Shown: positions 128 through 63,032 of the stretch, piece by piece
Numbering within the stretch: position 1 is the first letter of the stretch
How the letters are laid out: every line of letters begins with the position of its first letter
Sequence record: NC_100327.1
DNA length: 64,000 bases
Direction: 5' to 3' (one strand)
From: a phage
Made by a program: the position numbers and the translations under genes
Notes under the pieces: generated by a model
What the model was told of the DNA's origin: nothing
What the model saw: only the letters and a program-made list of their open reading frames with translations
The model's database searches: none

Positions 128-2110
128 TTATTTGGTGTTATTCTTTGCGTCGATCAGTTCACGGTATTCAATCATAGCAGGAGTGTCCCAATATTTCAAG
201 CCCACATGCTTCAAAAGTGGATATTTCTTTTCCAATCTTGCAATATAGGCCTTCCCGCACTTGACTCGGTTGGCGATTAAGATTTTGGCACGATGATTTA
301 GCTCACTGTGCTTCCACGCGGTGTTACCTTCCCACTTGTGGAAATGTGGCCGATAATTTCCAAAATCTTGCATGGGGATAATTTTCCCTAATTGTCTATA
401 CAGGCTGTCATATGAAGTTTCATTTGCTGCGCGAGTCAGTAAGAATTTCCAGGCGTCCTCTTTCAACAAATGTTCCACATTTTTCTCTGTAACATACTGG
501 CAATCAGGATCAGTCCAAAGCAGACGAGATTCTGATACCAGGTACAGATCTTCCCCTTCAGGAATCTGGAGTGCCGCACGCACACGGTCATAATTTTGCT
601 GGTAGATGTTACTTAGCTGTCCCAGCCAACAACTTCCACGTTGGATATCACCCTCATAAGGAATGCAGTGCTTAATCTTCTTGAACTCTGCCTTAGTAAT
701 ACGCTCACGACGGAAGTAACCATCTTTCTCAAGTTTTTTAACCCAATACCCTGGCTCATAGTGAGTTTTTGTTTCACCTTTCTTTACAGGACGGCGAGGG
801 AGCTCTGATAACAATTTGACCGTATCTGCAAAGAACGGGTGGTGTGCCGCTTCTTTAAACTCTTCCATCAGATCCGTGTTACGGCAATAGAAAACGTTGC
901 GTCCGGTGATCTCGCTTAAGTAGTTACACTTATTTCGGTTATATTTGCCGTCTCCGTCGTTAAATACAAGGTATACACCTCGTAAGAACTCCGACTTTCC
1001 GTAACGAGCATAGCCTATGCGGCCTTTATTTAAGCCGCCAGCGAAAATTTCACAATCGCCTAAGTCGCCAAGCCCTGTTTCTTCCCAACGGTTCCACATA
1101 AAGTTTTTGCCGAAGATGTGTCCGAACACTCCACTGTTCTTCATCATCTCACGTGCTTCTGAGGATGTTTTTGCTGTCTCCAATTCCGCAACAACTTCTG
1201 CCCCACGAAGACGTATACCTTCTTTGACAAAGGCCTCCAGGCGATCCTGGAATCCACCATCGTCGTGCCCCTCTATGGTCCATTCGCGCCCAGGGTTAAT
1301 ATTGCAATCCCCGATAGGGATCTCTACACAGATTGCAGGGTAGTCTGTCAATGTTTCCAGAAACTTAGAGCGGTAAGGTTGGTGTCCCATCACCACACGG
1401 CTCTCATCAGAGCTGGTATAACCTTTCAGGATAGTCATTTTCCAACCATCTTTCTCGTAGCGATACTGCGCCTCAACCTTGTCACCTTCCAGCATCTTAC
1501 TGGTCATAGGGTCGGTAACGGTAAACGGAAACTTTGCATAGCGTAGGCATGACGCAATAGCAGTGCGATATTTCAGAACATGCTCTTTCTTAACATGGAA
1601 CTGAACTTTTACCCCGTTGTGCTCTTCAGTCTTTCGCTCGCGGATCTTGGTAACGTTTGGGATACCCTGATCCAAGAACAATAGATATGTGCTTTCAACA
1701 CCATTGTGCACACTGATAACATCGAAAGTGTCCACCATACTGAACGGAGCCTTTGAACCAACACCTTTATTACCTACCAGAGCGTTGCTGTTGCGCTTGG
1801 TTGACTCCCCGAGATTCATGAAAGTGTTGCGGACCATCTCTTCTGACATGCCCAATCCAACGTCCTGCACAAAGAAGTATGGTTCAAGGTCTGTAGGAGA
1901 GTGAATGATGATCGGTACATCACCCCGTCCAGACTCAACATGGGAGTCCACAGCATTGAAGATTGGTTCACGGCAGCTTGCCAGCACCTTATCTTCGTAA
2001 ATCCCTTTAATGATTAGCCCAAAAGTCTCTTTGTTCAGAGAAATTGAGCCCCTGGTGACCTCCATATTTCCGGTTAGTACTGCTTTAGTTTCATTACTGT
2101 TTACAATCAT
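128..2110 (-). CDS. GHKL-superfamily ATPase (Hsp90/MutL/MORC-like ATP-binding fold) with large uncharacterised C-terminal region
   Basis: 660-aa ORF; N-box EPIFNAVDSH, G1 box DVGLGMS, G2 box GNKGVGSKA within first ~130 aa; stop overlaps RBS of downstream gene. Confidence 0.6.
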   Translation of the reverse strand: MIVNSNETKAVLTGNMEVTRGSISLNKETFGLIIKGIYEDKVLASCREPIFNAVDSHVESGRGDVPIIIHSPTDLEPYFFVQDVGLGMSEEMVRNTFMNLGESTKRNSNALVGNKGVGSKAPFSMVDTFDVISVHNGVESTYLLFLDQGIPNVTKIRERKTEEHNGVKVQFHVKKEHVLKYRTAIASCLRYAKFPFTVTDPMTSKMLEGDKVEAQYRYEKDGWKMTILKGYTSSDESRVVMGHQPYRSKFLETLTDYPAICVEIPIGDCNINPGREWTIEGHDDGGFQDRLEAFVKEGIRLRGAEVVAELETAKTSSEAREMMKNSGVFGHIFGKNFMWNRWEETGLGDLGDCEIFAGGLNKGRIGYARYGKSEFLRGVYLVFNDGDGKYNRNKCNYLSEITGRNVFYCRNTDLMEEFKEAAHHPFFADTVKLLSELPRRPVKKGETKTHYEPGYWVKKLEKDGYFRRERITKAEFKKIKHCIPYEGDIQRGSCWLGQLSNIYQQNYDRVRAALQIPEGEDLYLVSESRLLWTDPDCQYVTEKNVEHLLKEDAWKFLLTRAANETSYDSLYRQLGKIIPMQDFGNYRPHFHKWEGNTAWKHSELNHRAKILIANRVKCGKAYIARLEKKYPLLKHVGLKYWDTPAMIEYRELIDAKNNTK

Positions 2111-2607
2111 TTATTGCGCTCCTTGTAGTAGATATGACTCCCGAATTGAGCTGTCCTCTGCATCTTTTTTGCCCATTTCGGTCGTACTTTGGTTGTATGG
2201 TAGTGTGTTGCTCCACCTGTTATGTCCATAGCCATGTATGCAACATGGTTGTTATTATAGACCTTTAGAAGCATCTTTGCAAGACTTTTAGCGTGATCCC
2301 ATGAATCTTTTTCTGTCACCTTAAAAGTTTTGCCGTGGTTTGTCCACGAAAACTGGTTAGGTTGGTAGACAATCTTTCTTATAGTGTCTGGGTATTTGGG
2401 GTGAGATTTCCTGTTTAGTGTGGCAAACCCTGATGCCAGCATACCCATCGTGCCATCCCCTCTAGCCTCCCTGTAGATATTGCATGCCAGAATGTTTTCC
2501 TTAGTATCTGAGGGCTTGCAAGTATGATATACTTTTTGTTTTGGTGCTGCAACAACAGGCAGCGATAAAAGTGCGCTCAAAATAATAGCAAAGATCTTAA
2601 TTTTCAC
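2107..2607 (-). CDS. secreted cell-wall hydrolase, SleB/Hydrolase_2-like (candidate endolysin)
   Basis: 166 aa; N-terminal hydrophobic signal or SAR-like segment MKIKIFAIILSALLSLPVVAA; NIYREARGDG motif typical of SleB-type hydrolases; GTG start preceded by GGAG. Confidence 0.5.
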   Translation of the reverse strand: MKIKIFAIILSALLSLPVVAAPKQKVYHTCKPSDTKENILACNIYREARGDGTMGMLASGFATLNRKSHPKYPDTIRKIVYQPNQFSWTNHGKTFKVTEKDSWDHAKSLAKMLLKVYNNNHVAYMAMDITGGATHYHTTKVRPKWAKKMQRTAQFGSHIYYKERNK

Positions 2608-2616
2608 AATGACTCC

Positions 2617-2644
2617 AAATAGAAAATCCCCGCCGAAGCGGGGG
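2617..2644 (-). terminator. rho-independent terminator (CCCCGC-CGAA-GCGGGG hairpin plus U-run on minus-strand RNA)
   Basis: GC hairpin 2627-2644 followed on minus strand by T-run (plus A-run 2622-2626); sits immediately before RBS of hydrolase gene. Confidence 0.6.
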
Positions 2645-2656
2645 AGGTCTTAGAAA

Positions 2657-3037
2657 TTAATCGTAGTGTGCCAAAATCTCTCCATCGTTGCAAGTTCCCT
2701 CTACAAAGTTATGAAGATTCATGCACTCATCTTGATAGAAGAATTTACCGCTTTTCAGCCGTAGGCCAAACAACTCCGCATCTCCACGATGGCAAGCCTC
2801 TACAAGTTCATAGATTTCATACGGCAACTCTCCGTCGTCATGGAAGAATCCAGCCTTATCGTTGACATAAATGAAGAAATAATCACTGCTATCGCAAGCG
2901 TCCAATATTTTAAACCAGATTTCATCTACATCTTTTTCTCGGATATCGATCACGCAAGTGGAGCTGCATTCGTACTCCTTCTCCGGCTCCTCGGTCAATA
3001 CCACCAGGTAGTTTCCCCGCTTACCTACTTTAGCCAT
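2657..3037 (-). CDS. hypothetical protein
   Basis: ORF 2657-3085 trimmed to ATG at 3037 (MAKVGKRG...) which has AAGGGGGG RBS and avoids overlap with upstream gene. Confidence 0.5.
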   Translation of the reverse strand: MAKVGKRGNYLVVLTEEPEKEYECSSTCVIDIREKDVDEIWFKILDACDSSDYFFIYVNDKAGFFHDDGELPYEIYELVEACHRGDAELFGLRLKSGKFFYQDECMNLHNFVEGTCNDGEILAHYD

Positions 3038-3047
3038 ACAACCCCCC

Positions 3048-4232
3048 TTAAGCTTTAGCCAAAATGGCGCTAAACTCTTCACCAAACTCTTTTACAATCT
3101 TCATCAGGTTTGGGTATGCTTTGATCAGCTGAGCAACAATCTTGTCACGCCCTTTACCGATAAGCAAGGCATTTCCTAAGGCATTAGGTTTCATCATCGC
3201 CATAAAGACTGAGAATACAAAATCTCGGTTCTCGTCCTTGAAGTTTTCCCAAAGGAAATCGAGGAAGTTTGCCACACAGCTGACAAGATCTTCGTCTGAG
3301 ATACTTGCATTTTCCATCATATTACGAATAGCGATACAACCTTCAGATCCAAGAATCCACAAAATGTCTGGCTGCTTAGGACCTACGTATTCTTTGCAGC
3401 CACCTGCCATAATCCGACCGATTTCCGGTAAATTGCGTTTCTTGGTGTGGTATGTCCAGATCTCTACCGCTGCAGTGTGACCAATAGCACCTTGCAGAAG
3501 AACACGGGCCATAGCGTCAGAAATAATACCGCTGTCAAAATCGTGCAAGATGTCAGATGCAGCAACCCAAGATCGTGGTGTGGCAAAAGATGGACAATTA
3601 ATCTCAGCCATAGCCTCATAATTATCAATAGCTGATGGAACTCTTTTCAGATACCCAATTACAGAGGAGTGAACCCCGTTGAGGAATGCGTAGTCCTCAA
3701 TAAACACCTCTGCATTGCTTGTAACCTCTACAATGATAAAACGGTTAGCCAGAGGGGCTTCGAGCGCCGAAAGAACCGCACCATCTGTAGAACGGTTACC
3801 CGCAGCCACAAAAACAGAACCCTTAGGGAATGCATAGGTGCCGCACTTGTGGTCAAGCATAATTTGCATTGCAACCTTTTGCAGGTAGTTATCTGCATGA
3901 GTGAGCTCATCCAGAAAGATAATTCCGCTCCAGTCAGGATCCGCAGGCCAAAATTCTGGAATTGCAAACACTGTACGTGTAGTTCCATCCGCTTCTACAG
4001 GGATAGGTAGCCCAGATAAGTCGGCAGGATCTTTATCTGACAGTCGCACGTCAACAAGGTTGTCATCTCGCTCACCGAACATATTATCAGCGATCTGCTT
4101 CATCACCTGGCTTTTACCCACACCCATTGGTCCCAAAATTAGGACAGATCGGCTATGACGTTGGGCAAACTGAATAATAGCTGGCAACTCACGGACAGTG
4201 ATTTGACCACTTTCGAATACGTTTCTTGACAT
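3048..4232 (-). CDS. MoxR/CobS-like AAA+ ATPase (AAA_5 family)
   Basis: 394 aa; Walker A GPMGVGKS, Walker B IIFLDELTHA, arginine-finger region AAGNRS; size and motifs typical of MoxR-type ATPases. Confidence 0.7.
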   Translation of the reverse strand: MSRNVFESGQITVRELPAIIQFAQRHSRSVLILGPMGVGKSQVMKQIADNMFGERDDNLVDVRLSDKDPADLSGLPIPVEADGTTRTVFAIPEFWPADPDWSGIIFLDELTHADNYLQKVAMQIMLDHKCGTYAFPKGSVFVAAGNRSTDGAVLSALEAPLANRFIIVEVTSNAEVFIEDYAFLNGVHSSVIGYLKRVPSAIDNYEAMAEINCPSFATPRSWVAASDILHDFDSGIISDAMARVLLQGAIGHTAAVEIWTYHTKKRNLPEIGRIMAGGCKEYVGPKQPDILWILGSEGCIAIRNMMENASISDEDLVSCVANFLDFLWENFKDENRDFVFSVFMAMMKPNALGNALLIGKGRDKIVAQLIKAYPNLMKIVKEFGEEFSAILAKA

Positions 4233-4501
4233 TAGTAAAAGTCCTCTACTTGTGTGTAAGTGTTTTCAAAGTTTTCCAAAACAGATATCACATCGAATCT
4301 GTCAATATCATACGTGACTCTCCAGTTGTACGCAACCCTTTCTGCTGTTGCCTCTTCTGGCGCTAGTCGTCTGCTGGCATAAAAGAGTGTTGGAGTACAC
4401 TTTCTTGCTTGCCCTCTAACTTTCCCATAATAATATCTGTGAATATCTTTGTCAAAATTTAACTCTTTTTCTGCACGAAGTTCATATTGCTGGTATAACA
4501 T
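4232..4501 (-). CDS. hypothetical protein
   Basis: 89-aa ORF in leftward early operon, stop overlaps start of ATPase gene. Confidence 0.45.
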   Translation of the reverse strand: MLYQQYELRAEKELNFDKDIHRYYYGKVRGQARKCTPTLFYASRRLAPEEATAERVAYNWRVTYDIDRFDVISVLENFENTYTQVEDFY

Positions 4502-4545
4502 CTCTACTACTCCTTAAGCAGCATCCTTGCCGCCATTCCTGCCCA

Positions 4546-4926
4546 CTAAAATGCAGTCCGAATCCAGACAAGGTTCTTATCTGCCCAATCATAGAGGCAA
4601 GTCATTGCACTATTGAATTGCTCACACGGAGGATAATCTTCTTCCATCTGGCGCATAGCAGAGCCTTGTGGGTAAAGCTCCCGTGCTGCAAACCACGCGT
4701 CGTAGTCATCAACGGTGTCGAAGTAGTATACAACATCCTCTAACTCAGGATCGAACTTTGAACTATCAGGATCCAGTTGTTCAGGGAACTTGGAGCGTAA
4801 CTTGCCAGCCACAATACTTGCCAACTCGCTAACATGCTTATTGTCCCACTCCACTAGCTTCCCATCTTCAGTGATGCGTCCTAACCACTGATCATGAAGG
4901 TCAACTGTTGTCTTCCACTGAGCCAT
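4546..4926 (-). CDS. hypothetical protein
   Basis: 126-aa ORF, co-oriented in tightly packed leftward operon. Confidence 0.5.
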   Translation of the reverse strand: MAQWKTTVDLHDQWLGRITEDGKLVEWDNKHVSELASIVAGKLRSKFPEQLDPDSSKFDPELEDVVYYFDTVDDYDAWFAARELYPQGSAMRQMEEDYPPCEQFNSAMTCLYDWADKNLVWIRTAF

Positions 4927-4928
4927 TA

Positions 4929-5186
4929 TCAGTCCACCTCTTCTTCTCGTTGTAGTTCAAGATACCCGTAGGTCTGGACATCTTGAAGGGTGTGGAACTC
5001 CCCCTCTGCCGCTAAGGCACGAACAACTTGGCACAAAACCTTATGAGGAACTTCATCCAAACCTAGATTCAGTGCAGGAAACACCTTATCTAAGTCAACA
5101 AAATAAACGAACTGTAGCTCACCAGCTTCAAAAGGTGTATCTTCAATAAACATCTTCTCGGCATTAGTCAAGATCTGCACTTTCAT
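4929..5186 (-). CDS. hypothetical protein
   Basis: 85-aa ORF, start/stop coupled to neighbours. Confidence 0.45.
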   Translation of the reverse strand: MKVQILTNAEKMFIEDTPFEAGELQFVYFVDLDKVFPALNLGLDEVPHKVLCQVVRALAAEGEFHTLQDVQTYGYLELQREEEVD

Positions 5187-5542
5187 TATTCTACCTCCTC
5201 TTCTTTTTCTTCGGCATTAGTTTCATGGCTACCCCACTCGGGAGTTTCCACCTCGATAGTAAACTCACGCACTACACGGTAATTGCCCATGAAGCGCTCT
5301 ACTTCGTCAAGGCTTATGGAGAGGCCATTGGCAACCAGGTCTGCAGCACCCTCTTCTACCAGGTAGTCCAGATTGGCTTCCAGAGCCTCAGGTTCAAACC
5401 CTGTCAATGCAATCAGATAACCTTCCCCTTCATCAGGGAGGACAATACAGCCCAATTGATTTTCTTTAAAAAGGCAGTGACCATCATTATTGATTGGGTG
5501 TTCATTGCAGTAAATAGCTGCACGATAAGTAACTTTAGACAT
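5186..5542 (-). CDS. hypothetical acidic protein (N-terminus MSKVTYRA encoded by the 29-bp inverted repeat)
   Basis: ORF trimmed to ATG at 5542-5540 preceded by AAGGAGA RBS; acidic C-terminal tail EEKEEEVE. Confidence 0.5.
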   Translation of the reverse strand: MSKVTYRAAIYCNEHPINNDGHCLFKENQLGCIVLPDEGEGYLIALTGFEPEALEANLDYLVEEGAADLVANGLSISLDEVERFMGNYRVVREFTIEVETPEWGSHETNAEEKEEEVE

Positions 5543-5547
5543 CGGTA
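5519..5547. repeat. 29-bp perfect inverted repeat, left copy (partner at 7381-7409)
   Basis: Reverse complement of 5519-5547 equals 7381-7409 exactly (TACCGATGTCTAAAGTTACTTATCGTGCA). Confidence 0.9.
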
Positions 5548-5555
5548 AGGTCTCC

Positions 5556-5834
5556 TTAGGCAATTGTCATTTTACATTCTTGAAATTTTAACACAAGACG
5601 GTGATTGTGTCTAGTGTCTAAAAAGATTTTTTCAACCATCAGGCACACGGTATAACCGTCCATCTTGTTGACAACAAAATCTCCAGGATGAGGGAGGATG
5701 TCTCCCGGATTGGGGAAACATAGTCCACTCAGAAAGGCATCGTCAGTGGTGGACTTAATAGATTTCCACACACTGTCTGCCTGAACATGTTCACCGACGT
5801 AATATACATTACCACATGCCTTCATCATAGTCAA
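5556..5834 (-). CDS. hypothetical protein
   Basis: 92-aa ORF; its stop overlaps the RBS of the downstream MSKVTYRA gene. Confidence 0.45.
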   Translation of the reverse strand: MTMMKACGNVYYVGEHVQADSVWKSIKSTTDDAFLSGLCFPNPGDILPHPGDFVVNKMDGYTVCLMVEKIFLDTRHNHRLVLKFQECKMTIA

Positions 5835-6730
5835 ACCCTCGCATAAATTAAACTTGTATCAGTATACTTCTTTAATGGGTAAATATCCTGTCCATAGATG
5901 CAATCATTAAACACCTCATCTACCCAAAGGCTACACTTATATCCCATCATTTCTAAAACACCCATCTCTTCTTCGGTAAACTTATCACCGCTCTTGCAAG
6001 ATGTCAATACCTCATTCTGAACTCTTGCTACCTCGAAGCGGTTATTGGCAATATCGCTATTGGCGATCAAATACTCACCTAGAGGGTGTGCGGCATTAAA
6101 GATGCACAGTGGACGGCTGACGTAATAGTCTCCAGGTGTATAAAAATTGTTGAGGTCTTTCACTAGAACATTCTTATCAGTCACTTCATTTATAACATCA
6201 TGCATATCGCACATCTTTATATGTTTGAGGATTCCATCCCCCATCACAAAATAAAAACTTGCTGAAACACTTTCGGCATAGATCTTACTAGATCCGTTGT
6301 AGTTGTATTTTACTCGGATGCTAACGGGGGTTTTTCCTGTCGCGTTAGCCATCATCCAAAGAAATGGCAGCTCATACTTCTCCTCTGAGGAAACAAAAGG
6401 TGAGGTAGCCAGAGATCGAAAACCTCCAGAGAAGTTGAAAGTTACAGAACCGCTCCGGCGGTATGATACCGCGTATTCTACTTTTATATCGACATACCCA
6501 TTGGAATAGGTGTGTCCTTCATTATCTAAATATGTCCACTTATCAGACCCAGATACCAATCTACGCTCAATAACCTTCATCACTATAGGAATTAATGGGT
6601 TGGTACAAACCGCTTTTGAAGTAGCTTTATCATCTAAAGCCTCGTAAATTGCAGAAAGGATGTCCCCAGCTGAAAGATTGGTTGTTATGTCCTGTTTCCA
6701 CCGCGTACTAAAACTGTTAAGATTTGCCAT
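5831..6730 (-). CDS. hypothetical protein
   Basis: 299-aa ORF, first gene of leftward operon; AGGAG RBS; downstream of promoter at 6771-6799. Confidence 0.55.
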   Translation of the reverse strand: MANLNSFSTRWKQDITTNLSAGDILSAIYEALDDKATSKAVCTNPLIPIVMKVIERRLVSGSDKWTYLDNEGHTYSNGYVDIKVEYAVSYRRSGSVTFNFSGGFRSLATSPFVSSEEKYELPFLWMMANATGKTPVSIRVKYNYNGSSKIYAESVSASFYFVMGDGILKHIKMCDMHDVINEVTDKNVLVKDLNNFYTPGDYYVSRPLCIFNAAHPLGEYLIANSDIANNRFEVARVQNEVLTSCKSGDKFTEEEMGVLEMMGYKCSLWVDEVFNDCIYGQDIYPLKKYTDTSLIYARV

Positions 6731-6770
6731 AAGTAAGTGCTCCTATGTTAGTTTTCTTTCGAATGGGTGC

Positions 6771-6799
6771 ACTATATTGTGGAGTTAGAGTAAAGTCAA
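6771..6799 (-). promoter_or_regulatory. sigma70-like promoter for leftward early operon (TTGACT-N17-TATAGT on minus strand)
   Basis: -35 is revcomp of 6794-6799, -10 is revcomp of 6771-6776, 17-nt spacer; ~35 nt upstream of the 5831-6730 start. Confidence 0.55.
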
Positions 6800-6812
6800 C
6801 ACGTTTTTGATG

Positions 6813-6841
6813 TTGACATCTGTTGAGACAATTGATAAGAT
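6813..6841 (+). promoter_or_regulatory. sigma70-like promoter for rightward early operon (TTGACA, 17-nt spacer, TG-extended TAAGAT)
   Basis: Consensus -35 TTGACA at 6813-6818; weaker -10 at 6836-6841 with TG at 6833-6834; back-to-back with leftward promoter so the two -35 boxes form palindrome GTCAACA-N9-TGTTGAC. Confidence 0.45.
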
Positions 6842-6872
6842 TTCTTCACTTACAGAGCACGAGAGACGACTC

Positions 6873-7850
6873 ATGAATCTTGAAAAATATTATACACCAG
6901 AAGAGTTAGAGCGCTTGCTCAAAAAATATAGACGCAAACAGAATAACGCACGGAAACGAGATATAGAGTTCGACCTGTCATGGGAAGAATACCTCCTATT
7001 TGGTAAAAAACTTTTAGGAGATGGAGTATGCGACTATACCCTTATACCTTTTGACATGCACACAGATGAAAACGGGCTGGGGAATCCTTTCTACCCATCC
7101 CTGGAGCGGATAGATGATGAAGGTCCTTATGCGGTTGATAACTGTTGTGTGGTGGGATTGAGATGCAACTCTCTAAAGGACTGTCTGGTAGATAAAAAGA
7201 CTGCAGTCTTGATTAAAGACGAAACTGATCGAAAAATTGTCCAGCAGATGATGCTCCACCTGAGCGAAGAGCGTATGGAGAAATTGAAAGGTGATTATAC
7301 TTTTGAAGATTTCATCTTGCAATATGGAACGGAAGAGGATAAACTAGCACTCTTTGACGAAGAAGAGGAGGAAGATATGCTACCGATGTCTAAAGTTACT
7401 TATCGTGCACCCAAGAAGCACATTTCCGACATTGTAAACGAGCCTATCACAGAAGAGATTGAAGAAATGACGCAACAGGTGCATGAAGAGGAAAAAGAGA
7501 CTCAGGAGGTCGAAGAGGAGCTTACAGAAGAGGTTCCTGCACTACCTGATGATGTTGAGATTGCCAAAGCTTACACTTTCTATTGTCAAACGTTCTACGA
7601 TGTAGGTATGAAAGTTGATCTGTCGTTCAGCCAATTTAAGAGTTCGTATATTCGCAAATGCTGTGCTTTAACTGGTGAACGTCTTGGAGCTGGACTTAAA
7701 CCCCTGTTGGTGACCGACTGGAATAAAGGTTTCACTAAAGGAAACTTTATGGTAGTATCTCCGATTATGGAGAAAGCTATGACAGATCTTATGAAGACCA
7801 CCCGCATGACAATGACCGAGTTGGCAGGTATTTTCAAACACGTTAAATAA
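6873..7850 (+). CDS. hypothetical protein; N-terminal part has a degenerate HNH-like motif, C-terminal part begins with the repeat-encoded MSKVTYRA after an internal SD-like sequence
   Basis: ORF 6807-7850 trimmed to ATG 6873 because 6807 lies inside the promoter; acidic linker DEEEEED; internal GAGGAGGAAGAT plus ATG at 7387 may mark a nested start. Confidence 0.45.
   Translation: MNLEKYYTPEELERLLKKYRRKQNNARKRDIEFDLSWEEYLLFGKKLLGDGVCDYTLIPFDMHTDENGLGNPFYPSLERIDDEGPYAVDNCCVVGLRCNSLKDCLVDKKTAVLIKDETDRKIVQQMMLHLSEERMEKLKGDYTFEDFILQYGTEEDKLALFDEEEEEDMLPMSKVTYRAPKKHISDIVNEPITEEIEEMTQQVHEEEKETQEVEEELTEEVPALPDDVEIAKAYTFYCQTFYDVGMKVDLSFSQFKSSYIRKCCALTGERLGAGLKPLLVTDWNKGFTKGNFMVVSPIMEKAMTDLMKTTRMTMTELAGIFKHVK
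7381..7409. repeat. 29-bp perfect inverted repeat, right copy (partner at 5519-5547)
   Basis: Exact reverse-complement match to 5519-5547. Confidence 0.9.
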
Positions 7851-7883
7851 TGACAGGGGCCAATGGCCCCTTCTGGAGTTTTA

Positions 7884-9344
7884 ATGGATAGCAGAAGTTC
7901 AGAAATCATTGCCTCGCAGAAAGATGATGCCCTGAGAATGTTGCAGGCTGCACGTATGTATCTCCTTGAAAAGCTGCCGTTTTATGGCACACTACTGTCA
8001 GGGTTGCAGTTCGTAGAAAACCACACATGGTGCTCCACCATGGCAACCGACCATAAACGCATCTATTACAGTCCTGAGTTCATTATGGGATTGGCTGATG
8101 AACGCAAGGCTATTCTTAAGGCTTCTCTAACTGACGAGCAGTTTGAGATGGCTGAAGTTTTCTATTCCCCAAAATCTGTGAAAGAGGTGGCCTTCCTTCT
8201 GTCACATGAGGTGGGGCATATTATCTGTGATCACCTAGTCCGTGGTAAAAGCTTTGAGCCGGAACTGTTCAATATTGCTTGTGATCACGTTATCAACACA
8301 GGCCTTGTGGTTGACTTTAGCAAACCTCCTTGTGTTTTCTTCCCGAAGGGGAAAAGCACTACGTTCCTGAAAGGTAAGCCTTTTGGCTTCTTAGCCAGCT
8401 GCTACTGCGACATGAAGTTTCATGGATGGATTGCTGAGAACGTTTATGCAGTTCTTGATAAGCAAAGAGATCAGAATAACGGTAAAAGTAAGAACGGTAA
8501 AGGTGAGAACTCTCAAAGTGATAAGCGACAAACCGATGATCGCATGAGTGGGAACGGTGGCACCAGTGATAATCTTGGAAAGGCTATGGGGTATGATCAG
8601 CCACAACCTGTAATCAGCCAATCTGATAAAGATCAGGCCATGCAGGACTCTGGTGATATGCTGGAGGCAGCAATGCAAGCGTCCGGAGGCCGTTGCCCTG
8701 AGGCGGTGCGTGAGTTTGTCAAGAACAGAGGTAAGCCTGTAATCAACTATATAGACATCATTAAGCAACGTATGTTGTCTAAAAGAAAGGCCGAACTGAC
8801 CTACAGAAAACCTGGTCGCCGATCTGGGTCTTTGACCAGCACAATGCGAAAAGTTGGGGCTATAAACAAGAACCAGCACGTTATTGTTCCTGGTCGTAAT
8901 CCGGAAAACACTATAGATATTGTGGTGGCTTTAGACGTTTCTGGCTCGATCTCTCAAAGAACTTTAAAGAAAATGTTCAATGAAATCACCGGATTGTGCA
9001 ATCTGTATAAAGAGTTTAAGGTTACAATGTTCTGTTGGTCAACTGAGGTTGGAGAGGTTAAAGTATACACTCGCGGCAACATAGACGAGATGGTCAACTA
9101 TGAGGTCCACTCAACATGGGGCACAACAGCTGCTTGCGTGTTCGAGTATCTGGATGCCAACATACCTAATGCAAAAGATGTCATCGTCCTGACCGACCTA
9201 TACTTTGAGCATAACTTTGAACAAAAGGTTGTTGACAACAAGTGGAAAAAGTACGATACTCTATGGGTCCTCACTGAGGGGTATAATAAAAATTATATCC
9301 CGAGCTTTGGGAAAACTGTGGAATTAATCGAGTACGCTAAGTAA
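7884..9344 (+). CDS. zinc-metallopeptidase-like plus von Willebrand A domain protein (DUF2201-like, typical partner of MoxR ATPases)
   Basis: HEXXH motif HEVGHIICDH in N-terminal half; C-terminal MIDAS-type VWA motif VVALDVSGSIS; start moved to ATG 7884 with GGAG RBS, outside the GGGGCC-AAT-GGCCCC hairpin at 7856-7870. Confidence 0.65.
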   Translation: MDSRSSEIIASQKDDALRMLQAARMYLLEKLPFYGTLLSGLQFVENHTWCSTMATDHKRIYYSPEFIMGLADERKAILKASLTDEQFEMAEVFYSPKSVKEVAFLLSHEVGHIICDHLVRGKSFEPELFNIACDHVINTGLVVDFSKPPCVFFPKGKSTTFLKGKPFGFLASCYCDMKFHGWIAENVYAVLDKQRDQNNGKSKNGKGENSQSDKRQTDDRMSGNGGTSDNLGKAMGYDQPQPVISQSDKDQAMQDSGDMLEAAMQASGGRCPEAVREFVKNRGKPVINYIDIIKQRMLSKRKAELTYRKPGRRSGSLTSTMRKVGAINKNQHVIVPGRNPENTIDIVVALDVSGSISQRTLKKMFNEITGLCNLYKEFKVTMFCWSTEVGEVKVYTRGNIDEMVNYEVHSTWGTTAACVFEYLDANIPNAKDVIVLTDLYFEHNFEQKVVDNKWKKYDTLWVLTEGYNKNYIPSFGKTVELIEYAK

Positions 9345-9359
9345 GAGAGGAGGTTATTT

Positions 9360-9623
9360 ATGGCAACAGAGTTAAAATTTGCATCAAACCGTAAAACTAA
9401 GAAGTATCTGTCCTCAGTAGCTCCAGGCACTGTGGTGATGTTTGTTGATGAACTTGGGGATGTGAATACAGCACTTGTTGTAAAATCACATCCTGCAAAC
9501 ATATATGTTGGGGTATTTGACCTGTTCAGAAAGGTGTTTGTAGAACTGCCTCACAGTTTGGTTGTTACAGAAATGGATGCCTGCATAGAAATTCTTGGCG
9601 AAGTTATGGTGGAGGAACAATAA
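9360..9623 (+). CDS. small protein, member 1 of four-gene tandem paralog family
   Basis: 87 aa; GAGGAGG RBS; shares MAT...K.KKK...GTVV...VK...F.L...ILGE pattern with next ORF. Confidence 0.6.
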   Translation: MATELKFASNRKTKKYLSSVAPGTVVMFVDELGDVNTALVVKSHPANIYVGVFDLFRKVFVELPHSLVVTEMDACIEILGEVMVEEQ

Positions 9624-9886
9624 TGGCTACCAGCATTGTATTCAATTCTAAGGTGAAGAACAAAAAGCGTGCAGACAGTTTTCCGTGTGGGACCGTGGTA
9701 AGTTGCGACGGAGACGGCATTCAAAACATAGTTATGATTGTCAAAACAGGAGAACATTGTGTGTGGGGGTTCGATTTAGAAAATAATGAGTTGTACGATC
9801 TGCCGCCAAACATGAAAGTTACAGAGCTTGACACCAAAATTACCATCCTTGGAGAGACAAGCTATTCAAAAGAAGGAGGAGAATAA
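9623..9886 (+). CDS. small protein, member 2 of tandem paralog family
   Basis: 87 aa; start overlaps previous stop; conserved CGTVV and ITILGE positions. Confidence 0.6.
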   Translation: MATSIVFNSKVKNKKRADSFPCGTVVSCDGDGIQNIVMIVKTGEHCVWGFDLENNELYDLPPNMKVTELDTKITILGETSYSKEGGE

Positions 9887-10149
9887 TGACCACAAAAATC
9901 ACTATCGCAGAACCGAAAGCTAACACTCAGCCTATCGAAAAGTTTAAGTGCGGTGAGGTGGTAACATTCACACCAGATAATGAAGATGCTAAGATTTTCG
10001 CAATGGTCACAGCTGAGTGGATGTGTGACAACACCACACAGGTTCTGCGTTTTGACACCTATCTTACCGATGAAATCAGGAACGACAAGATTGTGACTGG
10101 TGTGGATACTGAGATTGTTTTCTACAAGAGCTTTTTAGAGGGTTTCTGA
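9886..10149 (+). CDS. small protein, member 3 of tandem paralog family
   Basis: 87 aa; KCGEVVTF and downstream hydrophobic pattern aligned with members 1-2. Confidence 0.55.
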   Translation: MTTKITIAEPKANTQPIEKFKCGEVVTFTPDNEDAKIFAMVTAEWMCDNTTQVLRFDTYLTDEIRNDKIVTGVDTEIVFYKSFLEGF

Positions 10150-10150
10150 T

Positions 10151-10384
10151 ATGGCAAAAATTAGAAAATTATCTAGCAATCAGGTTGTGAAAGACTTCGA
10201 ATCTGGAGAGATTCTTTATGTTCGTGATGCAGATGACGAAGGTGAAGATCTCGTTATGTTGGTGGGGCACGCTGAGGACGGATGCATCCAAGCTGTTTTT
10301 CTTGAAACAGCTATGGTGCACTGGATAGAGCTGGACCTGAAAGCACGAAAACCTAAAGCAGAAATCCTGATTTACGAAGATTAA
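10151..10384 (+). CDS. small protein, member 4 of tandem paralog family (more divergent)
   Basis: 77 aa; GEILYV...LVMLVG pattern comparable with the other members. Confidence 0.5.
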   Translation: MAKIRKLSSNQVVKDFESGEILYVRDADDEGEDLVMLVGHAEDGCIQAVFLETAMVHWIELDLKARKPKAEILIYED

Positions 10385-10400
10385 CAAAAAGGAGATAGCC

Positions 10401-10850
10401 GTGTTGAGCAAACGTGAATGCGACAGCATTAGCCTGAATTCTTATAAGAAACAATGGTTTGGGGTGGAAGTTTGCCGACTGCGGCTAGGCTCCTACCTGA
10501 ACTTCGTTTATTATGAGAGTGACAGTCGTATCGTTTCTTATGAAGTGTTCTACACTAAGAACACATTCGAACTGCGCCGTAAAGTAGATGGCGGGAGAAC
10601 TACCACCCAGAATAATTGGGAAACTATTCTGCCTCCAGATGTTATAGGAAGTCCCCTGAATGTATCTGAAGATGAAAATCTTATGGTTCATGCTATGATG
10701 GGACTTGACAGCTTAGAGCTGGCAATCTATGATATGTCCATCGAAGCAGTTAAGCTGGACTACATCGAAAACACTTTAGAGGAAGGTATCAAGAAGTTTC
10801 TCAGTGAGAAATTAAAAGACCACTTTCATAAGGAGCTATATCTGTTATGA
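10401..10850 (+). CDS. hypothetical protein
   Basis: 149-aa ORF with AAGGAG RBS and GTG start. Confidence 0.5.
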   Translation: MLSKRECDSISLNSYKKQWFGVEVCRLRLGSYLNFVYYESDSRIVSYEVFYTKNTFELRRKVDGGRTTTQNNWETILPPDVIGSPLNVSEDENLMVHAMMGLDSLELAIYDMSIEAVKLDYIENTLEEGIKKFLSEKLKDHFHKELYLL

Positions 10851-11092
10851 AGACCCGTAAAGAACGTAACAAAATTTTACCTGGAGCTCTCGAACACCTG
10901 ATGAAGTGCAGATCTATTTGGCACTCTGCCAAGGAAGGGCAGAAGGTGGTTGTGGTTAGTGACAATACCAACCCGTTTGGAGATTATACCACCATGATGG
11001 CCCCATATGTCCGTGATGGCGTTGTAGAAGTGGTCCCTTACAACGGTTTGCATGAACGGCACTTTGAAAGCGCTTTGCTAGTGGAGCTATAG
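10847..11092 (+). CDS. hypothetical protein
   Basis: 81-aa ORF, start overlaps upstream stop. Confidence 0.45.
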   Translation: MKTRKERNKILPGALEHLMKCRSIWHSAKEGQKVVVVSDNTNPFGDYTTMMAPYVRDGVVEVVPYNGLHERHFESALLVEL

Positions 11093-11094
11093 TC

Positions 11095-11661
11095 ATGGCG
11101 GTCAATGTGGCTTACAACACAGGAAAGCTTGACAGAGACATTGGGTGTCTTGTCCTTTCAGATACAGAAGAGTATTGGGGTTATGGGTTGCTGTCAGACC
11201 CACACCCGAGCAACCTTGTATCAACAGTGCTATACCGCTACGACCCTGTGCCAACGGTACACGACAAAGACATTCACGACCTTCGGATCAAGTGTCTGGA
11301 AGATCTGCTGAACAATGGTTGCAACGATCTGCGGGTAGCCAAGGAGAAGCTTACAAACATTCACAAAGAGGAAGTGATGAGTACCCTCAGTAAAAGATCA
11401 GTGCACAAAAAGATGATGCTGAACTTTGCAATGGGTATCTACATGGATGGGTATAAGGGAGGGGATCCGATCCTCAAGCTTCGCTGCCCGACACTGTGGG
11501 AAAGAGTGGTTGACAGTAAGGACGGTACTGCCCTGCTCGAACTCCACACTGCAGGTTGGATTTGGCGGTATGTAGACGGATACCCTCTGTGGGCATGTGG
11601 ACCTGGGGAATTTGTTGACAGACCTAGCGCGGTGGTGGACTTACTATTGCAGTTTGAATAA
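11095..11661 (+). CDS. hypothetical protein
   Basis: 188-aa ORF in rightward operon. Confidence 0.5.
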   Translation: MAVNVAYNTGKLDRDIGCLVLSDTEEYWGYGLLSDPHPSNLVSTVLYRYDPVPTVHDKDIHDLRIKCLEDLLNNGCNDLRVAKEKLTNIHKEEVMSTLSKRSVHKKMMLNFAMGIYMDGYKGGDPILKLRCPTLWERVVDSKDGTALLELHTAGWIWRYVDGYPLWACGPGEFVDRPSAVVDLLLQFE

Positions 11662-11718
11662 AAAGGTGAGTTATAAGGTATTCATACACCTACCAACAAT
11701 ACAACAGGAGAGACTAAG

Positions 11719-11994
11719 ATGACGAAAGAAGAGGCCGACGTATTAGATTTTGCACTAGAGGCTACGCAGGAGGCTTTGGTGTTAGCTTGGAAAATGAACC
11801 AGCGTGCTGCAGAATGCAACCGCCGCATCAATGAGATCTTGGGCATGTCTATGTATGATTTCACCATGTATGCCGGAGAGATTCCTGAATTAACTGCCGA
11901 GATGAATGATCTTGACGATAAAATTAATATCATTCTGAAGACAGCAGAAACAACTCACCAAACCGCCCGTAAATTTATCAACGAGAAGGTGTGA
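11719..11994 (+). CDS. hypothetical protein
   Basis: 91-aa ORF, GGAGAG RBS. Confidence 0.45.
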   Translation: MTKEEADVLDFALEATQEALVLAWKMNQRAAECNRRINEILGMSMYDFTMYAGEIPELTAEMNDLDDKINIILKTAETTHQTARKFINEKV

Positions 11995-11996
11995 AT

Positions 11997-12461
11997 ATGG
12001 ACTACAGCTACTGCGGGGAAGAAGTCCCTTTTAATTACAGCAATCTTACCACGAGCAATCCATATGAGACTCGCCACGGCACGCACATCATTGCCATCGA
12101 CTTTGATGGAACGTTTAATGCGAGCCCTTTCATCTTCTCCAGCCTGATCAGGGATCTGAAGAAGGAGGGGTGGACAGTCTACCTTGTGACTTTCCGATTC
12201 ATTACTCAAGACAATGTAGACATTGAGTATTGGCGCAAGGAGCTCGATGTTGGTGTGTTCTACACAGGTGGTGTTCAGAAGGCAGCCTACCTGGCGCAGT
12301 TTGATATCTACCCAGATATCTGGATTGATGATTCTCCGGCATGTATTCCGGCTAAGAATCAGTTAGAGTTTGCAATGAAGGAGATTGAGTATAAGTCTGA
12401 GGCTAAGCGGAACGGATGGCCCTTTATTATTGAAGATTACCCAGATCCTGAACCGGAGTAA
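11997..12461 (+). CDS. HAD-superfamily hydrolase-like protein
   Basis: Motif I IAIDFDGT (DxDGT) near N-terminus and IWIDDS near C-terminus; ATG 11997 with AAGGTG RBS. Confidence 0.55.
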   Translation: MDYSYCGEEVPFNYSNLTTSNPYETRHGTHIIAIDFDGTFNASPFIFSSLIRDLKKEGWTVYLVTFRFITQDNVDIEYWRKELDVGVFYTGGVQKAAYLAQFDIYPDIWIDDSPACIPAKNQLEFAMKEIEYKSEAKRNGWPFIIEDYPDPEPE

Positions 12462-12466
12462 GAGCC

Positions 12467-12637
12467 ATGAGGCGAAGATATCATTACCTGATGTGGAAGT
12501 TATATCAAAATGCTGCCAAAGCCTATCATATCATGTTTGGCAATGACGATCACTACATCATGTTACATCTCACCGCTATTGAGCATCACAATGAGTGGAT
12601 TCATGCAATCGTGGCAGGTGATAAAGACTTTAAGTAA
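12467..12637 (+). CDS. small hypothetical protein (56 aa, below ORF-track cutoff)
   Basis: ATG at 12467 with GGAG 9 nt upstream; fills the otherwise non-coding gap; His-rich. Confidence 0.35.
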   Translation: MRRRYHYLMWKLYQNAAKAYHIMFGNDDHYIMLHLTAIEHHNEWIHAIVAGDKDFK

Positions 12638-12687
12638 AGTATACCTCAAAAACGTATAGTGCGGCTTTCTAGACGGAGACTGATTAA

Positions 12688-13068: not shown

Positions 13069-13077
13069 TAGAATTTA

Positions 13078-13095
13078 AGGCCTCAAACGAGGCCT
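13078..13095 (+). terminator. intergenic hairpin, weak terminator candidate
   Basis: AGGCCTC-AAAC-GAGGCCT stem-loop after the stop at 13068; no immediate U-run. Confidence 0.3.
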
Positions 13096-63021: not shown

Positions 63022-63032
63022 TATTTATTATT

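What the first reader, a model, noticed from the sequence alone, without database searches (positions are those of the whole stretch)
3048..9344. MoxR-type AAA+ ATPase and metallopeptidase-VWA partner encoded on opposite sides of the divergent early promoters
The ATPase at 3048-4232 has MoxR-family features and the protein at 7884-9344 combines an HEXXH zinc-metallopeptidase motif with a C-terminal VWA domain carrying the D-x-S-G-S metal-binding motif. MoxR ATPases normally work with a VWA partner and in bacteria the two genes are usually adjacent. Here they are about 3.6 kb apart on opposite strands, each the distal member of one of the two divergent early operons. That placement suggests coordinated early expression from a shared control region; the function of such pairs in phages is unsettled.
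Basis: partly seen in the sequence, partly recalled or inferred. Interest (0 to 1): 0.6.

Follow-up and report, generated by a model that had tools for sequence, protein, structure and literature searches.

The report
Split phage MoxR ATPase–peptidase/VWA gene pair
Both genes are real, but they are the already-annotated rV5 copy of a two-gene module (a MoxR-type ATPase plus a zinc-peptidase/VWA partner, like phage N4 gp24/gp25) that is common in large phages and bacteria, has no known function, and was split in this phage lineage by an old inversion.

Summary
The window is an rV5-like Vequintavirus, 100% identical to Escherichia phage nimi over 3000-9400. Both genes sit at the stated coordinates. 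The ATPase (3048-4232, minus strand) has a complete AAA+ motif set, and its model is closest to the MoxR ATPases NorQ and CbbQ. It misses Pfam's AAA_3/AAA_5 cut-offs itself; relatives at 31-34% identity pass them. The partner (7884-9344, plus strand) is DUF2201_N + DUF2201, with HEVGH and a complete MIDAS site.

Comparative genomics strongly supports that they are a pair. Homologues are adjacent (ATPase first) in N4 (gp24/gp25), PEV2, 121Q, Certrevirus, an Aeromonas phage, 66 of 68 informative viral contigs and many bacterial loci. The split occurs only in the Vequintavirus, Avunavirus, Seunavirus and BIS47-like clade. It fits an inversion of the ATPase block with a breakpoint between the two genes.

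The "distal member" claim is wrong for the peptidase gene, which is second of about 15, and only approximate for the ATPase. Early timing is predicted from promoter-like sites, not shown. No functional study was found.

The best mechanism is an ATP-driven MoxR hexamer working through the VWA domain, with the zincin cleaving a bound protein. Known, annotated genes with an open function: modest interest.

The parts
3048..4232 (-). MoxR-type AAA+ ATPase gene (394 aa; phrog_1297; N4 gp24-like).
   Evidence: ORF. PHROG match 2e-110. Invariant in the 34-sequence alignment: Walker A G37/G39/K40/S41, Walker B D108/E109, N146/R147, N163/R164, P219/R220. AF2 model has pLDDT 83; it shows a beta-hairpin at 76-89 that I read as the helix-2 insert and a small hairpin at about 129-134 before beta4. 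Top fold matches are NorQ, CbbQ2, cso-CbbQ and CHU_0153. The family profile hits Midasin AAA modules at 2.6e-10.
4110..4133 (-). Walker A motif GPMGVGKS of the ATPase.
   Evidence: invariant G/G/K/S.
3906..3917 (-). Walker B motif FLDE of the ATPase.
   Evidence: D108/E109 invariant.
4427..4455 (-). Candidate internal sigma70-like promoter (TTGACA-17-TATTAT, 11 of 12 matches). It lies 195 nt upstream of the ATPase start, inside the small gene 4232-4501.
   Evidence: A consensus match only.
2628..2643 (-). Intrinsic-terminator-like hairpin (CCCCGCTTCGGCGGGG followed by a T-run). It ends the leftward unit one gene after the ATPase.
   Evidence: Annotated as a terminator in the Murica and Gotham records.
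6771..6841 (.). Back-to-back divergent sigma70-like promoters. The minus-strand site is 6799-6771 and the plus-strand site is 6813-6841. Their -35 boxes form the inverted repeat GTCAACACGTTTTTGATGTTGAC at 6795-6817.
   Evidence: PhagePromoter predictions in the Gotham record. A similar GTCAACGCTTGAC core occurs in Av-05. Activity and timing were not shown.
7855..7871 (.). GC-rich palindromic hairpin (AGGGGCCAATGGCCCCT) between the first rightward gene and the peptidase-VWA gene. It could be a weak terminator or attenuator, or an RNA-stability element.
   Evidence: Annotated as a terminator in the Murica record. The T-tail on the plus strand is poor.
7884..9344 (+). Zincin-VWA partner gene (486 aa; DUF2201_N + DUF2201; phrog_1314; N4 gp25-like).
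8205..8234 (+). Metal-site motif HEVGHIICDH (HExxHxxxxH). The conserved N..A.D...N helix follows at aa 130-138.
   Evidence: H108/E109/H112/H117/N130/A132/D134 are at least 90% conserved and N138 is invariant. HExxH is present in all 16 phage-type sequences shown in the alignment and in 140 of 146 top family representatives.
8934..8948 (+). MIDAS motif DVSGS of the VWA domain. T414 and D438 complete the site.
   Evidence: D351, S353, S355, T414 and D438 are invariant in 39 sequences.

Best explanation
The two genes are the Vequintavirus copy of a widespread two-gene module. One gene encodes a MoxR-type AAA+ ATPase (N4 gp24-like). The other encodes an adaptor-effector protein with an N-terminal HExxH zincin domain fused to a C-terminal VWA/MIDAS domain (DUF2201_N + DUF2201, N4 gp25-like).

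Ancestrally the genes are adjacent and co-transcribed, ATPase first. In the common ancestor of Vequintavirus, Avunavirus, Seunavirus and BIS47-like phages, an inversion with a breakpoint between them put the ATPase block on the other arm of a divergent promoter region.

Inferred mechanism, by analogy with NorQ/NorD and CbbQ/CbbO:
1. The ATPase forms a hexamer.
2. The hexamer engages the VWA domain of the partner.
3. The MIDAS metal binds an acidic residue of a target protein.
4. ATP hydrolysis remodels the partner or target so that the attached zincin domain can cleave it. This would make the pair a two-component ATP-dependent protease or remodeller.

The module would be made soon after infection from host-RNA-polymerase promoters, alongside host-takeover and DNA-metabolism genes.

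Shown: gene identities, motif integrity, fold class, conserved linkage, and the rearrangement. Inferred: physical interaction, proteolysis, the target, and timing.
For: Identity:
- Pfam, PHROG, fold and profile results.
- All catalytic motifs of both proteins are intact and conserved.

Linkage:
- Adjacent, same-strand homologues in N4 gp24/gp25, PEV2 gp33/gp35, 121Q 563/564, CR9 gp126/127, Aeromonas phage 4L372D 078/077, a 578-kb jumbo-phage contig and 150-185-kb phage contigs.
- 66 of 68 informative IMG/VR loci retrieved with the ATPase alone have the partner downstream, gap 58-563 nt.
- Two bacterial contigs and 46 of 66 informative bacterial loci show the same arrangement.
- Genus-level counts of phage records with each gene are nearly the same: Escherichia 213 against 215, Pectobacterium 26 against 26, Cronobacter 17 against 17.
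- The two proteins diverge in parallel.

Inversion:
- The homologous HD-phosphohydrolase-to-ATPase block is on the same strand as the partner in CR9 and on the opposite arm in Av-05 and SSE121.

Mechanistic analogy:
- The top fold matches are NorQ in complex with the NorD VWA domain.
- The NorQD paper proposes that its 'finger-in-pore' VWA-AAA+ interaction is general for AAA+ proteins that partner with VWA-domain proteins (PMC13036017).

Selection for catalysis in phages:
- Phage copies keep HExxH, whereas a bacterial (Campylobacterota) clade has lost it.
Against: - There are no experimental data on this pair in any phage or bacterium in the searchable literature.
- The window ATPase misses the Pfam cut-offs for MoxR families.
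- The zincin domain has no solved structural relative in the hit lists. It has only weak sequence links to M48 and SprT-like families, so protease activity is a motif-based inference.
- A whole bacterial clade keeps the module with a dead HExxH, and 19 bacterial ATPase loci lack a DUF2201 neighbour. Peptidase chemistry is therefore not essential to every version.
- Characterised MoxR-VWA pairs mostly insert metals or remodel proteins rather than degrade them.
- Separate transcription units here would allow the two genes to be regulated independently.
Confidence: 0.55

Rival explanations
1. The pair is a non-proteolytic maturation or metal-insertion chaperone. As with NorQD, CbbQO, CobST or BchID, it would remodel a phage or host metalloenzyme, for example one of the nucleotide-metabolism enzymes encoded nearby, to load or exchange a cofactor. 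The HExxH domain would bind metal or act as a structural adaptor rather than as a protease.
For: - The closest solved relatives of the ATPase are NorQ and CbbQ.
- The VWA domain matches NorD, BchD and Midasin.
- The module repeatedly sits beside pyrimidine and DNA-metabolism genes: dCTP deaminase in N4, thymidylate synthase in 121Q and in uncultured phages, dCMP deaminase in 4L372D, and thymidylate kinase and HD phosphohydrolase in Av-05 and CR9.
- A bacterial clade keeps the module without HExxH.
Against: - HExxH plus the downstream His/Asp is kept in the phage-type sequences checked and in 140 of 146 top family representatives. That argues for catalysis.
- The neighbourhood link to nucleotide metabolism may only reflect the general content of early and middle regions.
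- No candidate client enzyme is conserved across all lineages.
Confidence: 0.2
2. The pair is a host-takeover or counter-defence protease. It would be an ATP-dependent protease aimed specifically at a host protein, such as a defence, nucleoid or transcription factor, and would be dispensable on permissive laboratory hosts.
For: - It sits in a region of small takeover-type genes, next to an Srd/anti-sigma-like gene (6873-7850) and an rIIA-like gene.
- It lies close to sigma70-like promoters.
Against: - The module is conserved across unrelated phage groups with very different hosts, and in free-living bacteria. That points to a generic rather than a host-specific target.
- Neither protein matches any PADLOC model, and no anti-defence literature was found.
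Confidence: 0.15
3. The two genes have become functionally uncoupled in Vequintavirus, and each now acts alone or with another partner. On this view the split reflects loss of the partnership.
For: - They lie on opposite strands, 3.65 kb apart, each with its own nearby regulatory candidates: a promoter at 4455-4427 and a hairpin at 7855-7871.
- Some bacterial ATPase homologues lack a DUF2201 neighbour.
Against: - The split has been stable across at least four genera at 45-53% protein identity. Both genes are always retained, and all active-site motifs are intact.
- No other VWA gene turned up near the ATPase among the ORFs scanned with Pfam in 128-13,637.
Confidence: 0.07
4. The pair is a virion-assembly chaperone, like the Acidianus two-tailed virus MoxR/VWA pair p618/p892 that acts in tail development.
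For: - That archaeal phage-tail assembly system is listed among studied MoxR-vWA systems in PMC7159879.
- In 121Q the pair is flanked by genes annotated as structural.
Against: - In rV5-like, N4-like, Certrevirus and 4L372D genomes the pair lies in the early, replication or nucleotide-metabolism region, not in the structural module.
- The ATV partner, as I recall it, has no zincin domain. This was not tested here.
Confidence: 0.03

Closest known systems
Escherichia phage N4 gp24 / gp25 and their homologues in N4-like phages (e.g. PEV2 gp33/gp35)
   Same: - Same two families: an AAA_5/MoxR-type ATPase and a metallopeptidase-vWFA protein.
- Function is listed as unknown in both cases.
- Both lie among early, middle or replication genes.
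   Different: - In N4-like phages the genes are neighbours on one strand; here they are split across a divergent promoter region.
- Identity is only 27% (ATPase) and 21% (partner).
- The Vequintavirinae partner carries about 40-100 extra residues: insertions before the HExxH and a low-complexity linker at aa 200-228.
NorQ/NorD and CbbQ/CbbO (MoxR 'CGN' group with VWA partners)
   Same: - These are the best structural matches of the ATPase model.
- The MIDAS site is intact.
- The expected mode of action is a hexamer engaging the VWA domain (PMC13036017).
   Different: - NorD and CbbO have no HExxH peptidase domain. They remodel a metalloenzyme (cNOR, Rubisco) rather than cleave it.
- The phage ATPase has an extra helical C-terminal region of about 150 residues.
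- No client enzyme is known.
Bacterial MoxR-type ATPase + DUF2201 operons (COG3864-type 'predicted metal-dependent peptidase')
   Same: - Same domain architecture and gene order.
- The family is very large: 33,913 cluster representatives at E<=1e-3.
   Different: - The genes are adjacent in bacteria.
- The Campylobacterota clade has replaced HExxH by N[GAS]xMH. At least two of its members (L146, L177) carry a related upstream gene of about 450 aa.
- These operons are also uncharacterised.
FtsH, and Cdc48 with Wss1 (an AAA+ motor coupled to a zinc metalloprotease)
   Same: The functional analogy proposed here: an AAA+ ring delivers or remodels a substrate for an HExxH protease. This rests on general knowledge.
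   Different: - FtsH is a single membrane-anchored polypeptide of the classical AAA clade.
- Here the motor is of MoxR type, the protease is on a separate VWA adaptor, and no threading function is known for MoxR proteins.
- No homology of the protease domains is shown beyond the weak M48 and SprT-like hits.
CobS/CobT- and BchI/BchD-type chelatase pairs (also found in cyanophages)
   Same: An AAA+ ATPase plus a VWA/MIDAS partner. BchD is among the VWA fold matches.
   Different: - No CobT, CobS or Mg-chelatase family hit for the window proteins. Only 1 of 34 ATPase family members touches Mg_chelatase, weakly.
- The partner has a zincin domain that chelatase D/T subunits lack.

Membership tests
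MoxR-type AAA+ ATPases (Pfam AAA_3 PF07726 / AAA_5 PF07728; helix-2-insert clade) | A complete AAA+ catalytic set: Walker A, Walker B, sensor 1, arginine finger and sensor 2. | tested here: met
   GPMGVGKS and FLDE were verified. G37/G39/K40/S41, D108/E109, N146/R147, N163/R164 and P219/R220 are invariant in 34 homologues. Assigning N146, R164 and R220 to sensor 1, the Arg finger and sensor 2 is my reading by position.
MoxR-type AAA+ ATPases (Pfam AAA_3 PF07726 / AAA_5 PF07728; helix-2-insert clade) | Sequence score above the curated family threshold. | tested here: not met
   For the window protein, AAA_5 scores 16.7 bits against a cut-off of 22. There is no AAA_3 hit and no NCBIfam hit. Homologues at 31-34% identity carry AAA_3/AAA_5. 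Among the 34 family members, 18 match bpMoxR, 15 AAA_5 and 13 AAA_3 at E<=0.01. A bacterial homologue passes the cut-offs.
MoxR-type AAA+ ATPases (Pfam AAA_3 PF07726 / AAA_5 PF07728; helix-2-insert clade) | A fold closest to solved MoxR proteins, with a helix-2 insert and a pre-sensor-1 hairpin. | tested here: met
   Ranks 1-17 in Foldseek against the PDB are NorQ and CbbQ2. cso-CbbQ and CHU_0153 also match. The model has a hairpin at 76-89 between beta2 and beta3 and a small hairpin at about 129-134 before beta4. The family profile hits Midasin AAA modules at 2.6e-10.
MoxR-type AAA+ ATPases (Pfam AAA_3 PF07726 / AAA_5 PF07728; helix-2-insert clade) | A VWA-domain partner encoded beside it. 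| tested here: inconclusive
   A partner exists but is 3.65 kb away on the other strand in this genome. It is adjacent in nearly all relatives.
MoxR-type AAA+ ATPases (Pfam AAA_3 PF07726 / AAA_5 PF07728; helix-2-insert clade) | Hexamer formation, ATPase activity, and stimulation by the partner. | not testable with these tools
   This needs biochemistry or cryo-EM.
DUF2201_N + DUF2201 zincin-VWA proteins (N4 gp25-like) | Both Pfam domains above the gathering score, in N-to-C order. | tested here: met
   DUF2201_N scores 99.1 bits (cut-off 23.2) and DUF2201 44.2 bits (cut-off 26.4). All 39 aligned members match both domains.
DUF2201_N + DUF2201 zincin-VWA proteins (N4 gp25-like) | The HExxH(x4)H ... 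N.A.D...N metal-site signature. | tested here: met
   HEVGHIICDH lies at aa 108-117. Conservation is shown. 140 of 146 top representatives have HExxH.
DUF2201_N + DUF2201 zincin-VWA proteins (N4 gp25-like) | A complete MIDAS site (DxSxS, T, D) in a VWA fold. | tested here: met
DUF2201_N + DUF2201 zincin-VWA proteins (N4 gp25-like) | Peptidase activity. | not testable with these tools
   No solved structure or assay exists for the family. There are only weak sequence links to M48 (18 of 39 members, best 8e-4) and SprT-like families.
CobT/CobS- or BchD/BchI-type chelatase | Family-level sequence match to CobT/CobS or Mg-chelatase subunits, and no peptidase domain. | tested here: not met
   Neither window protein gives such a Pfam or NCBIfam hit. 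The partner carries a conserved HExxH domain.
vWA-MoxR ternary conflict systems (Kaur et al. 2020) and known anti-phage defence systems | A third VMAP, beta-propeller or FtsH-type component, or a match to defence-system models. | tested here: not met
   PADLOC gives no hit for the partner and only sub-threshold P-loop hits for the ATPase. No third conserved component is seen in phage loci. The bpMoxR hits among family members are weak (best 9.6e-6).

The most novel reading that the evidence does not exclude
The MoxR-type ATPase and the zincin-VWA protein together form a previously uncharacterised class of two-component ATP-dependent protease. At least four unrelated groups of large lytic phages (Vequintavirinae, Schitoviridae, Rak2/121Q-like and other jumbo phages, and uncultured 150-185-kb phages) would make it early in infection to cleave one conserved cellular or phage protein. 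Vequintaviruses would then show that the two subunits need not be co-translated from one operon.
Probability: 0.3. Interest if true: 0.6.

Novelty: already known. Interest (0 to 1): 0.3.

Why it matters
The module is one of the few gene pairs of unknown function shared by several major groups of large virulent phages and by many bacteria; the family has more than 33,000 cluster representatives.

If its role were worked out, it would assign a function to N4 gp24/gp25, which the N4-like genome papers seen here list as function unknown. It would also test whether MoxR-VWA machines can drive proteolysis rather than only metal insertion or remodelling.

The rV5-type split is practically useful. Each gene can be knocked down separately, without polar effects on the other, in a phage (EdH4) for which CRISPRi-ART knock-down already works (PMC11879866).

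As a discovery, though, the pair is already annotated in public rV5-like genomes. The unusual placement has an ordinary explanation: an inversion.

Tried and rejected
- Single-sequence searches of both proteins against PDB sequences gave only P-loop-level or noise hits.
- NCBIfam gave nothing above cut-off, and PADLOC gave nothing.
- The search for related loci with the partner alignment failed because it had no stretch conserved enough. I switched to the ATPase alignment.
- The word-indexed profile search for the partner found only 38 proteins. The exhaustive search showed that the family is in fact huge.
- Literature searches found no functional study. The terms tried were DUF2201, COG3864 and PF13203; MoxR with rV5; Schitoviridae with vWFA; N4-like with gp24/gp25; and rV5 early transcription. 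The CRISPRi-ART paper covers EdH4 and N4 but reports nothing on these genes.
- I looked for a conserved third component. An upstream gene of about 450 aa is shared by the two Campylobacterota loci compared, but it is unrelated to the upstream gene in another bacterial locus and has no counterpart in phages.
- CobT-type chelatase identity was considered and rejected.
- Enrichment of sigma70-like sites in 1-14 kb is modest: 11 of 31 strong sites in 22% of the window. It does not prove an early region.

Full report
**Where the window comes from.** Positions 3000-9400 are 100% identical to Escherichia phage nimi and 99.8% identical to phage Murica. 121 phage records match, nearly all Vequintavirus (rV5-like myoviruses). 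The ATPase protein is 100% identical to that of the type phage rV5, where it is already labelled 'MoxR ATPase'. The partner is labelled 'metallopeptidase', 'putative metallopeptidase' or 'VWA-like domain containing protein' in several records. In others it is wrongly labelled 'anti-sigma factor', 'HNH endonuclease' or 'tail protein'.

**Checking the observation.**
- Both ORFs exist.
- For the partner, the 7884 ATG is the credible start. It has GGAG 5 nt upstream, whereas the 7863 ATG lies inside a GC hairpin.
- The quoted motifs are in place: HEVGHIICDH at 8205-8234, DVSGS at 8934-8948, Walker A GPMGVGKS at 4110-4133(-) and Walker B FLDE at 3906-3917(-).
- The partner is a clear member of DUF2201_N + DUF2201 (E 4e-28 and 2.5e-11, both above Pfam cut-offs).
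- The ATPase reaches no Pfam or NCBIfam cut-off (AAA_5 16.7 bits against 22). 'MoxR-family features' therefore needed independent support.

**Is the ATPase MoxR-type?**
- It has more than 5,700 detectable relatives. Those at 31-34% identity over about 85% of the length carry AAA_3 (the MoxR family) and AAA_5.
- Of 34 aligned family members, 18 match bpMoxR, 15 AAA_5 and 13 AAA_3.
- A profile of the family hits the AAA modules of Midasin (2.6e-10).
- In the 34-sequence alignment the following are invariant: Walker A G37/G39/K40/S41, Walker B D108/E109, N146/R147, N163/R164 and P219/R220.
- The AlphaFold2 model (pLDDT 83, pTM 0.78) has a beta-hairpin at 76-89 between beta2 and beta3, and a small hairpin before beta4. 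I read these as the helix-2 insert and the pre-sensor-1 hairpin.
- Ranks 1-17 against the PDB are NorQ (free and bound to the NorD VWA domain) and CbbQ2. cso-CbbQ and the MoxR protein CHU_0153 also match.
- I accept it as a divergent MoxR-type ATPase, noting that the threshold-based membership test fails for this particular sequence.

**The partner.**
- In 39 homologues D351, S353, S355, T414 and D438 are invariant, giving a full MIDAS site. H108, E109, H112, H117, N130, A132 and D134 are at least 90% conserved.
- The model (pLDDT 81) has a helical N-terminal domain, a disordered low-complexity linker (aa 200-228), and a C-terminal alpha/beta domain.
- The N-terminal domain found no solved relative in the lists. 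Sequence-level cross-hits are weak: Peptidase_M48 in 18 of 39 members (best 8e-4), SprT-like in 3, and the minigluzincin MJ1213 and HtpX/BepA at E 0.02-0.4.
- It is not CobT-like.
- The family is very large, with 33,913 50%-identity cluster representatives at E<=1e-3 and 15,310 at <=1e-30. Of the 146 best new representatives, 140 keep HExxH and 143 keep DxS[GA]S.

**Are the two genes a pair?** This is the strongest result. In every other lineage sampled, the two homologues are neighbours on one strand with the ATPase first.

| Source | Genes or result |
|---|---|
| Phage N4 | gp24/gp25, annotated 'similar to S. coel. protein 1/2' |
| Pseudomonas phage PEV2 | gp33/gp35, one small gene between |
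| Jumbo phage 121Q | 563/564 |
| Certrevirus CR9 | gp126/gp127 |
| Aeromonas phage 4L372D | 078/077 |
| 578-kb jumbo-phage contig | adjacent |
| 150-185-kb phage contigs | adjacent |
| N4-like contig | adjacent |
| Bacterial contigs | adjacent |

- I retrieved 80 IMG/VR loci with the ATPase profile alone and searched them with a partner HMM. 68 were informative, and 66 of those have the partner immediately downstream (gap 58-563 nt). The two exceptions are a Vequintavirus contig and a Klebsiella BIS47-like contig, both with the split layout. These loci are dominated by one uncultured clade, so they are not 66 independent events.
- In bacterial genomes (mostly Campylobacterota MAGs, but also a complete Sulfurovum chromosome and an Arcobacter isolate), 46 loci have the adjacent partner, 14 are cut by contig ends, one has it upstream, and 19 have none within about 5.8 kb.
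- tblastn against cultured phages finds the partner in 656 records and the ATPase in 820, with near-identical per-genus counts.
- Identities of the two proteins fall in parallel across lineages.

**How the split arose.**
- The split layout is shared by Vequintavirus, Avunavirus (Av-05), Seunavirus (SSE121) and BIS47-like phages, at 45-53% protein identity. It is therefore old and stable.
- In Certrevirus CR9 the rightward arm reads: promoter region, HD phosphohydrolase, three small genes, ATPase, partner.
- In Av-05 and SSE121 the homologous HD gene (50% and 57% identity) and the ATPase lie in the same order from the promoter region, but on the leftward arm. The partner stays on the rightward arm, behind an Srd/HNH-like gene.
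- This is what an inversion of the HD-to-ATPase block gives, with one breakpoint between the ATPase and the partner.
- All outgroups have the adjacent state, so adjacency is inferred to be ancestral.

**Transcription signals in the window.**
- The 142-bp region 6731-6872 holds two sigma70-like sites back to back (10 of 12 matches each). Their -35 boxes form the inverted repeat GTCAACACGTTTTTGATGTTGAC.
- Av-05 has a similar GTCAACGCTTGAC core with a TTGACA-17-GATACT rightward site. SSE121 has TGTTGACA-17-GATAAT.
- A related TGTTGAC(N17-19)TATAAT motif was proposed as the early promoter of Certrevirus (PMC7344957).
- The leftward unit has eight genes before a good terminator at 2643-2628, and the ATPase is the seventh. 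It overlaps the stop of the preceding 89-aa gene (ATGA at 4232). It also has a strong promoter-like site 195 nt upstream (4455-4427, 11 of 12 matches).
- The partner is the second rightward gene, preceded by the hairpin at 7855-7871 and followed by about 13 more plus-strand genes, to the hairpin at 13852-13873.
- Early timing is plausible. It is unproven for rV5-like phages. The overall count of promoter-like sites is close to the shuffled expectation.

**Mechanism.**
- MoxR-family ATPases typically act with VWA partners. Recent NorQD structures show a VWA 'finger' inserted in the ring pore and ATP-driven twisting of the partner to remodel the client. [quoted passage not shown]
- By analogy I infer that the phage ATPase hexamer engages the VWA domain of the partner, that the MIDAS site binds an acidic residue of a client, and that ATP hydrolysis positions or unfolds the client for the fused zincin domain.
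- The phage sequences always keep HExxH. The Campylobacterota bacterial clade has replaced it with N[GAS]xMH while keeping the downstream His and Asp. Catalysis therefore seems to be under selection in phages, but it is not intrinsic to every version of the module.
- The main rival is a non-proteolytic metal-insertion or maturation chaperone. It is favoured by the NorQ/CbbQ resemblance and by the recurrent neighbourhood of pyrimidine and DNA-metabolism genes.
- Neither the client nor the activity can be decided with these tools.

**Novelty and interest.**
- The genes, their domain content and the pairing (as N4 gp24/gp25-like genes) are already in public annotation and in genome papers.
- I did not find stated elsewhere that the Vequintavirus arrangement is a secondary split of an otherwise adjacent cassette. 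This is an ordinary rearrangement rather than a new regulatory design.
- The function of this very widespread module remains unknown, which gives the finding some value as a target for experiments.
- I rate it 'already known', with interest 0.3.

Noticed in passing
window 5519-5547 (-) and 7381-7409 (+): A perfect 29-nt inverted repeat (TACCGATGTCTAAAGTTACTTATCGTGCA), with none expected by chance. It brackets the divergent promoter region. On the minus arm it covers the start codon and first 8 codons (MSKVTYRA) of gene 5186-5542. On the plus arm it encodes the same peptide in frame inside the Srd/HNH-like gene 6873-7850, with an SD-like GAGGA upstream. It is present in Murica and Gotham but not in the Av-05, SSE121 or CR9 loci. 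It may be an internal start, a shared translational operator or a recombination site.
   Followed up: partly
window 6873-7850 (+): The first gene of the rightward arm has no Pfam hit. It matches PHROGs labelled HNH endonuclease, endonuclease VII, 'decoy of host sigma70' and 'Srd anti-sigma factor'. It is conserved at the same position in Av-05 and SSE121 and has an acidic low-complexity middle section.
   Followed up: partly
window 9360-10149 (+): Three consecutive 87-aa ORFs lie directly after the peptidase-VWA gene. The first two are clear paralogues (38% identity), and the third is more distant (18%). None has a Pfam hit.
   Followed up: partly
window 62945-63757 (-): A cluster of seven tRNA genes (Pro, Met, Thr, Ser, Tyr, Arg). 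It includes a 99-nt tRNA-like gene that ARAGORN reads with a four-base anticodon 'atcc' (63190-63288).
   Followed up: no
public records matching window 3000-9400: 16 records are named 'Campylobacter phage' (15 list host C. jejuni) and match this E. coli rV5-type region at 90% identity or more; the one listed, phage C12, is 99.6% identical. The host attribution looks doubtful. Separately, the partner gene is variously mis-annotated as HNH endonuclease, anti-sigma factor, tail protein, membrane protein or 'T4-gp25-like'.
   Followed up: no
L101-L178 (bacterial loci), e.g. L177 4593-8043 and L146 4559-6948: Campylobacterota carry close relatives of the ATPase (35-42% identity). Their DUF2201 partner has lost HExxH (N[GAS]xMH instead). 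In the two loci compared (L146 and L177), a related repeat-rich gene of about 450 aa with no Pfam hit precedes the ATPase. 19 loci, including the complete Sulfurovum sp. CS9 chromosome, have the ATPase but no DUF2201 gene nearby.
   Followed up: partly
window 128-2607 (-): Downstream on the ATPase strand lie a SleB-like cell-wall hydrolase with a signal-peptide-like N-terminus (2107-2607, Hydrolase_2 2e-19) and a 660-aa rIIA-like protein with a GHKL ATPase domain (128-2110, HATPase_c_3 1.8e-8). The rII genes of the related phage EdH4 were shown to counter Rex exclusion (PMC11879866).
   Followed up: no
L003 1592-8591 (578-kb phage contig): In a jumbo-phage contig the ATPase and DUF2201 pair lies among proteostasis genes (HSP20, ClpS, ClpP) and a T4-type RNA ligase. 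This is a possible hint that the module belongs with protein quality control in that phage.
   Followed up: no
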